Positions 515 to 19,546 of a DNA stretch of 64,000 bases are shown here, in pieces. The position numbers and the translations under genes were made by a program. Within the stretch, counting starts at the first letter, position 1. Each line of letters starts with the position of its first letter. The notes beneath the pieces are model-generated. The model worked only from the letters and a program-made list of their open reading frames with translations, ran no database searches and was not told the DNA's origin. Origin of the DNA: Candidatus Bathyarchaeota archaeon (GTDB lineage: Archaea; Thermoproteota; Bathyarchaeia; 40CM-2-53-6); assembly GCA_963726255.1 (NCBI GenBank), contig CAVSBL010000002.1, forward strand, positions 1,440,001-1,504,000, written 5' to 3'.

Positions 515-704
515 TGGCGGGCCCGCCGGGATTTGAACCCGGGACCCTTCCCCAAGAAGGCTTCTCAGCCGGTTTCTTTTCGGGTGGCTTCCCATGGGTT
601 CGAAAAGCCCAGAGGTAAAAGCGTCATCGACACCAGTCTGGCGTCTCCGATGCTCTACCTTTTCAGGATCCAGACTTGAAAGGATCTGACTGAGCTACGG
701 GCCC
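515..704 (-). tRNA. tRNA-Lys(UUU) with four BHB introns (D-loop about 17/17a, 30/31, 37/38, 43/44)
   Basis: Removing 687-661 (27 nt), 646-623 (24 nt), 615-586 (30 nt) and 579-548 (32 nt) gives a 77-nt cloverleaf GGGCCCGTAGCTCAGTCAGGTAGAGCATCGGGCTTTTAACCCGAGGGTCCCGGGTTCAAATCCCGGCGGGCCCGCCA. CCA is encoded. Confidence 0.93.
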
Positions 705-756
705 CGGACGCTCACAGCACGGTCCACTATCAAAAGCGTTTCGCAGGGACGAAGAT

Positions 757-1995: not shown

Positions 1996-2099
1996 TGGCG
2001 CCCTTCGCCAGGAGAAGGCTAGCTGCTCCTTTGGGCGGGATTCGAACCCGCGTCGACGACGTGACAGGCCGTCATCCTAGACCACTGAACGACCAGGGC
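1996..2099 (-). tRNA. tRNA-Asp(GUC) with one BHB intron at 68/69 in the acceptor stem
   Basis: Removing 2031-2004 (28 nt) restores acceptor stem GCCCTGG/CCAGGGC, a 76-nt tRNA with anticodon loop CT-GTC-AC and encoded CCA. Confidence 0.93.
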
Positions 2100-2199
2100 A
2101 TCGGCAACTCAGAAATCCCTGAGCCAGCTTAAAGCATTGCTACAGCATAGGCACTAGGCGCATCTTACTTGTGTAAGGATGGAATAAGATACGGACTCA

Positions 2200-6794: not shown

Positions 6795-6909
6795 TGGCGG
6801 GCCCGCGGGGATTCGAACCCCGGATCCCAGGCTTTCGCCGCGAACGCTCCGAAGGCTTACACGAATCGGTTCCATCTCTGTGTCTTAATCCTGGCTCGAC
6901 TACGGGCCC
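6795..6909 (-). tRNA. tRNA-Arg(UCG) with two introns (29/30 and 37/38)
   Basis: Removing 6877-6857 (21 nt, central helix ACAC/GTGT) and 6848-6834 (15 nt, relaxed BHB) gives anticodon arm CAGGC-CTTCGGA-GCCTG. CCA is encoded. Confidence 0.9.
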
Positions 6910-11461: not shown

Positions 11462-12025
11462 ATGGAGAACAGCCCCGCGCCCGTTCCTCAAGCCCCTTCA
11501 CAGACACAAGAAAAGCCACTGTTCACTCCCTGGAACGCCGTGTCCGACGGGCGTTTGGTCTACTTACCATACAAATCTGAACTCATGGAGCTACGAGACC
11601 GGGGGTTCGGCGAACTCAGAAAAGACAAGCTTCTCCTGTCTTCATACGAATCCTTCTACCTCCTAGAGAAACAGAAAATTCGCGTTTTCACCAAGAAAAG
11701 CAACCGGGAGTTAGAGCTTCGAGACCTTGTCCGGACATTTTCCGTCGGTAGACCCGAGATCTGGATAAAGTACTTGGTCTACAGGGACCTACGGGACCGT
11801 GGTTACATAGTTCGCGAGTCCACCAGGGCTTTCGATTTTGACATTTACGGAAAAGGGCCGCTAAGGCGATTAATCTCGATCGTATACGAGGGTGGCGAGG
11901 CAAGCCTCAGGAAACTGAGAGGACTACTTCAATATTCTGACAAGGAAAAGAAGGAACTGATACTAGCAGTTGTAGACCGACGCACAGACATAGTCTACTA
12001 TACGTTGAACTCGTTAAAGGTCTAG
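11462..12025 (+). CDS. endA: tRNA-intron (splicing) endonuclease, probable structural (beta) subunit
   Basis: YESFYLLE, YLVYRDLRDRGYIVR and LAVVDRRTDIVYY motifs. No His after the DFDIY motif. Confidence 0.85.
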   Translation: MENSPAPVPQAPSQTQEKPLFTPWNAVSDGRLVYLPYKSELMELRDRGFGELRKDKLLLSSYESFYLLEKQKIRVFTKKSNRELELRDLVRTFSVGRPEIWIKYLVYRDLRDRGYIVRESTRAFDFDIYGKGPLRRLISIVYEGGEASLRKLRGLLQYSDKEKKELILAVVDRRTDIVYYTLNSLKV

Positions 12026-19144: not shown

Positions 19145-19292
19145 TGGCGGGCCCGCGGGGATTTGAACCCCGGACTTCTGCACTGGCCTTCCAGTTCTAC
19201 AGCTTTTTCCGGGTGTTCCTTAGGGGGTTCGGCAACAATCTCCGCCTCTTTAAGCGGAGCCTGCCGCTCTATCCAACCTGAGCTACGGGCCC
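19145..19292 (-). tRNA. tRNA-Arg(CCU) with three introns (30/31, 37/38, 45/46); C at position 33
   Basis: Removing 19260-19228 (33 nt), 19220-19205 (16 nt) and 19196-19176 (21 nt) gives a 78-nt tRNA with A20 and anticodon arm GCAGC-CCCCTAA-GCTGT. Confidence 0.85.
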
Positions 19293-19382: not shown

Positions 19383-19546
19383 GCGGGGATACCCGAGCCA
19401 GGTCAAAGGGGCAGGACCACCAGCCCGCTGGTGGGGCCATACTTAAGATCAGAACTTGCCTTGGGCAAAGAGAAGGCATCCTGTGGCGTAGAGCCCACGT
19501 ATGGACGCGAAAGCCTTCAGGGGTTCGAATCCCCTTCCCCGCACCA
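19383..19546 (+). tRNA. tRNA-Leu(UAA) with three introns (30/31, 37/38, variable arm)
   Basis: Removing 19416-19440, 19448-19477 and about 19-21 nt within 19486-19512 gives a class II tRNA of about 88 nt with CAGGA-CTTAAGA-TCCTG, A73 and CCA. Divergent from tRNA-Arg(CCU). Confidence 0.9.

What the first reader, a model, noticed from the sequence alone, without database searches (positions are those of the whole stretch)
515..704. tRNA-Lys(UUU) gene in five exons: four BHB introns
Seen in sequence: 113 of the 190 nt are intron. The exons are 17, 14, 7, 6 and 33 nt and join into a perfect 77-nt cloverleaf. Each intron has a BHB with central helices TCAG/CTGA, CATC/GATG, CTTT/GAAG and ACCC/GGGG (one mismatch), 3-nt bulges and internal hairpins. 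Established: archaeal EndA cuts BHB motifs, and multi-intron tRNAs are known from Thermoproteales. From memory the reported maximum is three per gene, so four may be new; this needs a literature check. Standard tRNA finders would probably miss or mis-call this gene.
Basis: partly seen in the sequence, partly recalled or inferred. Interest (0 to 1): 0.9.

Follow-up and report, generated by a model that had tools for sequence, protein, structure and literature searches.

The report
Four-intron lysine tRNA gene, Bathyarchaeia
This is a real lysine tRNA gene of a soil/sediment archaeon (Bathyarchaeia) that is cut into five pieces by four short introns, a layout kept in many relatives, and it shows that this group joins the few archaeal lineages whose tRNA genes are almost all interrupted.

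Summary
On the minus strand, window 704..515 holds a 190-nt gene. Its five exons (17, 14, 7, 6, 33 nt) join into a 77-nt tRNA-Lys(UUU) cloverleaf with encoded CCA. [quoted passage not shown]

The best evidence is comparative. In 27 distinct orthologues from the same order, 69 of 77 exon positions are invariant against 5 of 113 intron positions. BHB helices covary. Introns 1, 2 and 4 are each precisely absent in some relatives.

The host is a Bathyarchaeia genome, not Thermoproteales. It encodes alpha- and beta-like EndA subunits and RtcB. No second functional Lys(UUU) gene was found, only a decayed 3' fragment.

Four introns exceed the "up to three" of the 2014 and 2021 papers I read. They are not a record: a 2026 preprint reports up to five in Asgard archaea. 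I found nothing in print on Bathyarchaeia. No RNA data cover the gene, so splicing is inferred.

The parts
688..704 (-). Exon 1 (17 nt): acceptor 5' strand, positions 8-9, D-stem 5' strand and the start of the D-loop (tRNA positions 1-17).
   Evidence: 16 of its 17 positions are invariant in 27 orthologues.
661..687 (-). Intron 1 (27 nt), in the D-loop after position 17. Central helix TCAG/CTGA (4 of 4 pairs) and a 5-bp intron hairpin GATCC/GGATC, which makes it HBh' type.
   Evidence: It is precisely absent in 9 of the 27 orthologues, where exons 1 and 2 are contiguous. Three of its 5 hairpin pairs show changes on both sides.
647..660 (-). Exon 2 (14 nt): rest of the D-loop, D-stem 3' strand, position 26 and anticodon-stem positions 27-30.
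623..646 (-). Intron 2 (24 nt), in the anticodon stem between positions 30 and 31. Central helix CATC/GATG, a 7-bp intron hairpin and a 4-bp exon helix, which makes it hBHBh' type.
   Evidence: All 5 counted hairpin pairs show changes on both sides. It is absent in G098, where exons 2 and 3 are contiguous.
616..622 (-). Exon 3 (7 nt, GCTTTTA): position 31 plus anticodon-loop positions 32-37, including the anticodon TTT.
   Evidence: All 7 positions are invariant in 27 orthologues.
586..615 (-). Intron 3 (30 nt), at the canonical 37/38 position. Central helix CTTT/GAAG, so the anticodon pairs with the intron.
   Evidence: It is present in all 27 orthologues, at 14-31 nt. The central helix is paired in 100% of cells.
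580..585 (-). Exon 4 (6 nt, ACCCGA): positions 38-43, that is the last loop base and the anticodon-stem 3' strand.
   Evidence: A43 changes to G together with T27 to C in G057 and G079. The four genus g5 orthologues show the same paired change in their spliced forms; their A43 column is gapped.
548..579 (-). Intron 4 (32 nt), between positions 43 and 44 where the anticodon stem meets the variable loop. The central helix ACCC/GGGG has 3 of 4 pairs. The intron hairpin is 5 bp (AAGAA/TTCTT), with an inner GGCT/AGCC stem closed by a GAGA loop.
   Evidence: In 6 of the 23 orthologues that carry it the central helix is perfect (ACCC/GGGT). It is absent in 4 orthologues of genus g5, where exons 4 and 5 are contiguous.
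515..547 (-). Exon 5 (33 nt): variable loop, T-arm, acceptor 3' strand, discriminator G and an encoded CCA (517-515).
728..743 (-). Promoter-like element, 39 to 24 nt upstream of the first tRNA base: cgaaa followed by cttttgata. It resembles an archaeal BRE plus TATA box.
   Evidence: Read. An element of one of two forms (..aaa.gcttttgata or ggaaaagtttaNgtag) stands at the same distance in the 27 orthologous loci printed, even where the other flanking sequence differs. Calling it a promoter is inference.

Best explanation
This is the genome's working gene for tRNA-Lys(UUU), split into five exons by four protein-spliced (BHB) introns after positions 17, 30, 37 and 43.

Proposed mechanism:
1. 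The gene is transcribed from a BRE/TATA-like promoter as a precursor of about 190 nt.
2. In the precursor, each intron folds back so that four exon bases lying two nucleotides upstream of the 5' cut pair with four intron bases lying two nucleotides upstream of the 3' cut. This forms the 4-bp central helix, flanked by two 3-nt bulges and closed by an intron hairpin.
3. The heterotetrameric (alpha-beta)2-type splicing endonuclease encoded in the genome cuts in both bulges of each motif.
4. RtcB joins the exons, giving a 74-nt body plus CCA.

The three motifs in the anticodon arm are tiled back to back (precursor positions 53-83, 84-120, 121-158) with no spare base. The 7-nt and 6-nt exons are as short as a BHB allows: 4 helix bases plus 2 bulge bases.

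What is shown: the gene architecture, its conservation, the covariation of the motif helices, and the presence of the enzymes' genes.

What is inferred: transcription, cleavage at these sites, ligation, and any order of intron removal.
For: 1. The spliced product is a standard tRNA. The exons joined by coordinates are called tRNA-Lys(ttt) by ARAGORN, with all 21 stem pairs standard.

2. Purifying selection acts on the exons only. In alignment A1 (27 distinct orthologues from genera g1 and g5 and families f7 and f10 of the same order), 69 of 77 exon positions are invariant against 5 of 113 intron positions. The cloverleaf pairs form in 100% of 563 cells. One compensatory change, T27:A43 to C:G, spans exons 2 and 4.

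3. Natural intron-less alleles mark the junctions. Intron 1 is exactly missing in 9 orthologues, intron 2 in 1 and intron 4 in 4. In each case the flanking exons are contiguous.

4. The splicing motif is conserved.
- 92.1% of 938 cells of the BHB helices are paired, against 36-50% when the partners are slid.
- 16 of 42 pairs have changes on both sides.
- 0 of 500 shuffles reach any of the five measures.

5. The four-intron form is widespread.
- In the window's genus it occurs in 12 of 22 genomes, G000 included.
- Nine genomes of the genus have three introns, one gene is cut by a contig end and one was not recovered.
- One genome of another family (G079) has the same four positions.

6. The machinery is encoded.
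- An EndA alpha-like protein of 188 aa matches Aeropyrum pernix EndA chain 3p1z_B at E 7.7e-41.
- A divergent beta-like protein of 187 aa lies at window 11462-12025. Its alignment to 1a79 has a gap where the catalytic His stands (the position of that His is recalled).
- RtcB scores 571 bits.

7. It is the only usable Lys(UUU) gene I found.
- The 3 uninterrupted UUU anticodon arms in the genome lie outside any tRNA context.
- ARAGORN's other 'Lys' call is not tRNA-like.
- The one paralogous match is a decayed fragment.
- Lys(CUU) is a separate gene with three introns.

8. A promoter-like element is conserved at a fixed distance upstream.
Against: - There is no RNA evidence. The single RNA run that held part of the stretch covers only 1470-1650, inside the neighbouring protease gene. 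No junction-spanning or circular-intron read was seen.
- The central helix of intron 4 has an A-G mismatch in this genome, so only 3 of 4 pairs form.
- BHB-like motifs are very common by chance under relaxed rules, so the motif alone would not carry the call.
- My tRNA census recognised only 36 genes. An archaeon is expected to have about 46 (recalled figure). A second, differently built Lys(UUU) gene is therefore not strictly excluded.
- The EndA subunit assignment rests on sequence similarity alone.
Confidence: 0.92

Rival explanations
1. It is a real gene, but not all four insertions are removed by EndA. One of them, most plausibly the D-loop insertion, stays in the mature tRNA or is removed by another route. 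The functional tRNA would then be longer or differently processed than the 77-nt product.
For: - No RNA data exist for the locus.
- The exon-side helix of intron 1 is only 1 bp.
- The central helix of intron 4 has a mismatch.
- The 2026 preprint notes that D-arm insertions are the ones annotation leaves inside 'mature' tRNAs.
Against: - Intron 1 has a perfect 4-bp central helix and a 5-bp hairpin that covaries: A-U to G-C, U-A to C-G and C-G to U-A.
- Nine relatives lack it exactly to the base, leaving a normal 9-nt D-loop.
- A 36-nt D-loop or a 37-nt variable region in a class I Lys tRNA has no precedent that I know of (recalled).
Confidence: 0.05
2. It is a pseudogene, or a decaying relic of a tRNA gene invaded by insertions, and Lys AAA codons are read by another tRNA.
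For: - The genome does hold a decayed partial copy at C2:471313-471446. It is 87% identical over precursor positions 52-185.
- Not all tRNA genes of the genome were found.
Against: - 69 of 77 exon positions are invariant across 27 genomes while the introns diverge.
- The cloverleaf is 100% paired, with a compensatory change.
- The CCA end and the promoter-like element are conserved.
- The true pseudo-copy shows what decay looks like here: no 5' exon, a broken T-stem and acceptor, and no CCA.
- No other Lys(UUU) candidate was found.
Confidence: 0.02
3. It is an assembly or binning artefact, a chimeric contig that stitches tRNA fragments together.
For: The assembly is metagenome-like, with 5 contigs and an estimated 9.34% contamination.
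Against: - The same 180-195-nt four-intron gene stands in the assemblies of 11 other genomes of the genus and one of another family, at the same place beside the acyl-CoA synthetase gene in the named MAG records.
- Contigs of public DNA runs cover 336-601 and 643-924 with 0 to 2 differences. One of these runs may be the source sample and is not independent.
Confidence: 0.01

Closest known systems
Multiple-intron tRNA genes of Thermoproteales (Pyrobaculum, Thermofilum, Caldivirga; Sugahara et al. 2007/2008, cited from reviews)
   Same: - Short BHB introns at canonical and non-canonical positions of one tRNA gene.
- A heterotetrameric alpha-beta type EndA in the host.
- Most tRNA genes of the genome interrupted.
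   Different: - The stated maximum there is three per gene (PMC4033280 and PMC8450103, passages read). Here there are four, in at least two genes (Lys UUU and Pro GGG).
- The host is Bathyarchaeia from peat, soil and freshwater sediment, not a hyperthermophilic Thermoproteales.
- 34 of the 36 tRNA genes I recognised here are longer than a mature tRNA. Thermoproteales are cited at about 70% with introns in PMC11291895.
[quoted passage not shown]
   Same: - 92-97% of tRNA genes interrupted, and many genes with several introns.
- Frequent D-arm insertions that annotation tools miss.
- Up to five intervening sequences per gene.
- Introns sit at BHB-competent sites.
- A wetland or soil habitat.
   Different: - A different phylum-level lineage. 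Bathyarchaeia belongs to the TACK/Thermoproteota side, and it is not named in the preprint's main text.
- I could not see the supplementary tables, which would tell whether any Asgard Lys(UUU) gene has the same four positions.
Cyanidioschyzon merolae nuclear tRNA genes with up to three BHB introns (PMC3728597)
   Same: Several ectopic BHB introns lie in one gene, in the D-arm, at 37/38 and in the T-loop. Ordered removal was shown there by RT-PCR (passages read).
   Different: It is a eukaryote with a maximum of three per gene, and some of its genes are also permuted. Here there is no permutation and no RNA data.
Split and tri-split tRNA genes (Nanoarchaeum, Caldivirga; cited from PMC4033280)
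   Same: The tRNA body is encoded in pieces that are joined at BHB-like motifs by EndA.
   Different: Those pieces are separate transcription units joined in trans. Here all five exons are contiguous on one 190-nt stretch behind one promoter-like element.

Membership tests
Archaeal protein-spliced (BHB) tRNA introns | Each exon-intron boundary can form a 4-bp central helix flanked by two 3-nt bulges on opposite strands, with at least one outer helix (h or h') of 2 or more pairs. This is the definition quoted in the preprint's section 4.8. | tested here: met
   - Introns 1, 2 and 3 have 4 of 4 central pairs, with h' of 5, 7 and 2 bp.
- Intron 4 has 3 of 4 central pairs with h' of 5 bp, which is the relaxed class.
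- Across 27 orthologues, 92.1% of cells are paired and the helices covary.
Archaeal protein-spliced (BHB) tRNA introns | Removing the introns restores a canonical cloverleaf of normal length. | tested here: met
   ARAGORN calls the 77-nt joined product tRNA-Lys(ttt). The cloverleaf is 100% paired in 27 orthologues.
Archaeal protein-spliced (BHB) tRNA introns | The host encodes a splicing endonuclease of a type that accepts non-canonical positions ((alpha-beta)2 or epsilon2), and an RNA ligase. | tested here: met
   - There are two PF01974 genes.
- One resembles crenarchaeal catalytic alpha subunits: 3p1z_B at 7.7e-41, 2zyz_B at 3.6e-28.
- The other is divergent and lacks the His-bearing stretch.
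- RtcB is present.
- The subunit roles and the heterotetramer are inferred from similarity.
Archaeal protein-spliced (BHB) tRNA introns | The introns are excised in the cell, shown by a spliced tRNA and linear or circular intron RNA. | not testable with these tools
   No RNA run covers the locus.
Multiple-intron tRNA genes of Thermoproteales | The host belongs to the order Thermoproteales. | tested here: not met
   The neighbouring protein's 12 closest matches (64-97% identity) are MAG records, 9 of them titled Bathyarchaeia or Bathyarchaeota. The gene works like those of Thermoproteales but is not one of them.
Group I / group II self-splicing tRNA introns | A ribozyme core of hundreds of nucleotides. 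| tested here: not met
   The introns are 24-32 nt. No Rfam intron family matched in the window.

The most novel reading that the evidence does not exclude
This Bathyarchaeia order is a third, previously unrecognised hotspot of tRNA-gene fragmentation, independent of Thermoproteales and the Asgard lineages.

- Nearly every tRNA gene is interrupted, at roughly two introns per gene.
- Four-intron genes have been stably inherited since before its families split.
- Exons are squeezed to the physical minimum that a BHB allows (6 and 7 nt), so three BHB motifs are tiled without a spare base through the anticodon arm.

Such tiling would force either simultaneous recognition of adjacent motifs by EndA or a fixed order of removal. 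The patchy, base-exact absence of intron 1 within one genus would make this a natural system for studying how archaeal tRNA introns are lost.
Probability: 0.5. Interest if true: 0.65.

Novelty: new member of a known kind. Interest (0 to 1): 0.55.

Why it matters
1. Annotation. ARAGORN and the Rfam tRNA model miss or mis-call the only Lys(UUU) gene of this genome. Automatic annotation of such Bathyarchaeia genomes will therefore report an incomplete tRNA set. This may lead to wrong conclusions about completeness or codon reading.

2. Biology. Heavy tRNA interruption has so far been described for Thermoproteales and, recently, a few Asgard families. A widespread peat, soil and sediment lineage of Bathyarchaeia with four-intron genes and about 94% interrupted tRNA genes adds an independent case. 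That bears on why and where BHB introns accumulate.

3. Mechanism. The 6-nt and 7-nt exons and the back-to-back BHB motifs give a sharp test of how an (alpha-beta)2 endonuclease handles adjacent substrates.

4. Evolution. Close relatives differ by the exact presence or absence of single introns. That is the material needed to study intron loss and gain.

Tried and rejected
- RNA evidence. One search for public runs gave 20 holders, only one of them on record as RNA (X20). Laying X20, X23, X1 and X10 showed that X20 covers only 1470-1650. The two joints seen (547 to 644 and 547 to 686) come from runs on record as DNA or probably DNA, and they carry other letters in between. They are related tRNA genes of other organisms, not spliced RNA. 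This says nothing for or against splicing.

- Whole-genome census of multi-intron tRNAs with my own solver, which fits a cloverleaf while allowing jumps at BHB-like sites.
One search returned no answer, although its file was written and was read.
  - The working version gives plausible solutions. However, the null test shows that scores under about 7 also arise from shuffled sequence, so the per-gene intron counts are rough.
  - The motif-free figure I rely on is gene length: 34 of 36 recognised genes exceed a mature tRNA.
  - About ten expected tRNA genes were not recognised, probably those with introns in the T-arm or acceptor.

- ARAGORN -i 'tRNA-Lys(ctt)' at C2:1428296-1428445 was rejected as a false call, because it has no tRNA features.

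- An integrated element as the source of the pseudo-fragment at C2:471313-471446. Seven neighbouring ORFs were scanned against Pfam. Four matched (an MFS transporter, an M24 peptidase, a HAD hydrolase and DUF1801), three had no match, and none was an integrase. The origin is left open.

- Repeated loss of intron 1. A tree built from the other columns needs 5 changes (bootstrap range 4-6), but well-supported branches alone force only 1. Repeated loss is suggested, not shown.

- The minimum-free-energy fold of the precursor (-84.9 kcal/mol, z = -4.04) shows the hairpins of introns 1, 2 and 4 and the acceptor stem. It does not reproduce all four BHB cores, so I did not use it as evidence for the motifs.

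- Literature. Seven searches found no paper on tRNA introns in Bathyarchaeia or Bathyarchaeota in the searchable library. Supplementary Data 4 of PMC11291895 and Tables S3/S4 of the 2026 preprint may list four- and five-intron genes that I could not see.

Full report
**What is there.**
Window 515-704 read on the minus strand begins with GGGCCCG and ends with its complement, a discriminator G and CCA.
- In window coordinates the exons are 704-688, 660-647, 622-616, 585-580 and 547-515.
- The introns lie after tRNA positions 17 (D-loop), 30 (inside the anticodon stem), 37 (the canonical site) and 43 (end of the anticodon stem).
- The exons, joined by coordinates in a script, are called tRNA-Lys(ttt) by ARAGORN, and all stem pairs are standard.
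- ARAGORN without introns and the Rfam tRNA model (at E <= 1) do not see the gene.
- ARAGORN -i finds the right ends but reports Lys(ctt) with one 119-nt intron.

**The splicing motifs.**
I used the published geometry as quoted in the preprint's section 4.8. Four exon bases upstream of the 5' bulge pair with four intron bases upstream of the 3' bulge. The bulges are 3 nt, and the outer helices are h (exon) and h' (intron).

| Intron | Central helix | Intron hairpin (h') | Exon helix (h) |
|---|---|---|---|
| 1 | TCAG/CTGA | 5 bp | 1 bp |
| 2 | CATC/GATG | 7 bp | 4 bp |
| 3 | CTTT/GAAG (one G-U) | 2 bp, then a mismatch and 4 more bp | the anticodon stem |
| 4 | ACCC/GGGG (3 of 4 pairs) | 5 bp, plus an inner stem capped by GAGA | 3 bp in the unspliced context |

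The three motifs in the anticodon arm occupy precursor positions 53-83, 84-120 and 121-158, with no spare base between them. The 7-nt and 6-nt exons are exactly what a BHB needs on its exon side. The cores can therefore coexist in one precursor. The outer exon helices of neighbouring motifs compete with each other. This last point is my reading of the sequence, not a test.

**Is it more than chance?**
The motif alone is not. Relaxed BHB rules give 186 to 349 candidate introns within the 187 nt. After shuffling the interior, all 150 shuffles still gave some cloverleaf-plus-BHB solution, although the best scored 6.9 against 12.7 for the real sequence. The case rests on comparison with relatives.

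**Who carries it.**
The neighbouring acyl-CoA synthetase gene has 12 close matches (64-97% identity). All are MAG records: nine are titled Bathyarchaeia or Bathyarchaeota, one is titled only 'archaeon', and two carry bacterial bin names. Ten of these loci carry the orthologous tRNA gene about 1.4-1.7 kb downstream (5 kb in L007), as in the window. The genome is 2.42 Mb with 51% G+C.

**Comparative evidence.**
A BLAST of the 190 nt over the 105 genomes of the order, followed by my solver, gave 27 distinct orthologues, which were aligned as A1.
- Conservation: 69 of 77 exon positions are invariant, against 5 of 113 intron positions. Columns of introns missing in some rows cannot be invariant, so the contrast is somewhat flattered.
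- Intron-less alleles: intron 1 is missing to the base in 9 genomes of the window's genus. Intron 2 is missing in G098 (family f10). Intron 4 is missing in the four genus g5 genomes. Each time the flanking exons are contiguous.
- Intron 3 is always present, at 14-31 nt.
- Cloverleaf: its pairs form in 100% of 563 cells, and one compensatory change (T27:A43 to C:G) links exons 2 and 4.
- BHB helices: 92.1% of 938 cells are paired, against 36-50% for slid partners. 16 of 42 pairs have changes on both sides. 0 of 500 shuffles reach any of the five measures. The tool warns that related sequences can beat shuffles without any structure; the slid controls argue against that here.
- Distribution in the window's genus: 12 of 22 genomes have four introns (G000 included), 9 have three, one gene is cut by a contig end (G054) and one was not recovered (G055).
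- G079, of another family, has four introns at the same positions in a 165-nt gene. The architecture is therefore old.
- A BRE/TATA-like element stands 39 to 24 nt upstream in all printed orthologues.

**Uniqueness.**
- The genome has only three uninterrupted UUU anticodon arms, none in a tRNA context.
- ARAGORN's other 'Lys' call is not tRNA-like.
- Lys(CUU) is a separate gene at C2:1965047-1965173, with three introns. Two of them are at the same positions, 30/31 and 37/38.
- The only paralogous match is C2:471313-471446. It is 87% identical over precursor positions 52-185, including introns 2-4. It has no exon 1 or D-arm, a broken T-stem and acceptor, and no CCA, so it is a decayed fragment.
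- My census recognised 36 tRNA genes, so a hidden second gene is not strictly excluded.

**Machinery.**
- Two genes match PF01974.
- One, of 188 aa, is closest to the Aeropyrum pernix EndA chain 3p1z_B (7.7e-41), to S. tokodaii 2cv8 and to Pyrobaculum 2zyz_B. It keeps the GPGIDHAPF stretch and the loop region that aligns with the crenarchaeal insert. The names of catalytic residues and of that loop are recalled.
- The other, of 187 aa at window 11462-12025, is divergent. Its best match is M. jannaschii 1a79 (7e-15), and it has a gap where the His-bearing stretch lies.
- This pattern fits an alpha-beta heterotetramer, the type that cuts non-canonical introns according to the abstract starts of PMC5829648 and PMC3239211 listed.
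- RtcB is present.

**Context in the genome.**
- Of the 36 recognised tRNA genes, 34 are at least 15 nt longer than a mature tRNA of their class. Only Arg(CCG) and Asp(GTC) are uninterrupted.
- My solver's best solutions sum to roughly two introns per gene. Given, this figure is rough.
- A second four-intron gene, Pro(GGG) at C2:979121-979301, is backed by relatives. 18 of 22 genomes of the genus match it (17 of them full-length). The five orthologues from genera g5 and g2 that I aligned lack its first insertion exactly.

**Literature.**
- PMC11291895 (2024) reports 92-95% intron-containing tRNA genes in Atabeyarchaeia and Freyarchaeia (passages).
- bioRxiv 10.64898/2026.10.13.758758 (abstract, section 2.1 and passages) reports 2.2 intervening sequences per gene and 'up to five in a single gene' in three Asgard families. 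Its main text does not mention Bathyarchaeia.
- Four of the searches paired Bathyarchaeia or Bathyarchaeota with tRNA-intron terms and found nothing relevant.
- Supplements were closed.

**RNA.**
No run on record as RNA covers the gene. Splicing is therefore inferred.

**Verdict.**
- This is a genuine, conserved, five-exon tRNA-Lys(UUU) gene with four BHB introns (confidence 0.92).
- It works like the multi-intron tRNAs of Thermoproteales and Asgard archaea, and it is a new member of that kind in a lineage for which I found no report.
- Four per gene exceeds the 'up to three' of the 2014 and 2021 papers I read, but it is not a record since the 2026 preprint.

Noticed in passing
G000:C2:979121-979301 (minus strand; outside the window): A second four-intron tRNA gene, Pro(GGG), 178 nt plus CCA. 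Insertions of 30, 20, 21 and 31 nt lie after positions 15, 23, 33 and 48, each with a 4 of 4 central helix. 18 of 22 genomes of the genus match it (17 full-length). The five orthologues from genera g5 and g2 that I aligned lack the first insertion exactly.
   Followed up: yes
G000:C2:471313-471446 (plus strand; outside the window): A decayed partial copy of the Lys(UUU) gene, 87% identical over precursor positions 52-185 and including introns 2-4. It lacks exon 1 and the D-arm, has a broken T-stem and acceptor, and has no CCA. G058 and G041 also carry a second partial copy 1-2 kb from their full gene. No integrase was found among the 7 neighbouring ORFs scanned. Its origin is unexplained.
   Followed up: partly
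window 11462-12025 (+): A gene for a divergent EndA-like protein of 187 aa that lacks the His-bearing catalytic stretch. It is probably the structural beta subunit of the splicing endonuclease, and it lies 11 kb from the four-intron tRNA gene. The alpha-like gene is far away, at C2:748xxx.
   Followed up: partly
window 19145-19292 (-) and 19383-19546 (+): Two more interrupted tRNA genes, arranged divergently. One is 145 nt (Rfam tRNA 37.3 bits; my solver suggests Arg(CCT) with three insertions). The other is 161 nt and class II (the solver suggests Leu(TAA)). The solver scores, 4.5 and 5.6, are below the level reached by shuffled sequence, so the anticodons and intron counts are tentative.
   Followed up: partly
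window 6795-6909 (-) and 2025-2100 (-): A 112-nt tRNA gene (the solver suggests Arg(TCG) with two insertions; Rfam 38.5 bits in the genome search) and tRNA-Asp(GTC). Asp(GTC) is one of only two uninterrupted tRNA genes recognised in the whole genome.
   Followed up: partly
G000:C2:1965047-1965173 (plus strand; outside the window): tRNA-Lys(CUU) has three introns. Two of them are at the same positions (30/31 and 37/38) as in Lys(UUU), which hints at introns inherited from before the isoacceptors diverged, or copied between them.
   Followed up: no
whole genome G000: 34 of 36 recognised tRNA genes are interrupted, and nearly all encode their CCA end. About ten expected tRNA genes escaped ARAGORN, Rfam and my solver alike. 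They probably carry introns in the T-arm or acceptor.
   Followed up: partly
window 728-743 (-) and the same place in loci L021-L050: The upstream promoter-like element comes in two forms (..aaa.gcttttgata and ggaaaagtttaNgtag). The forms go with two different genomic contexts of the Lys(UUU) gene among relatives, so the gene seems to have moved or been replaced together with its promoter.
   Followed up: no
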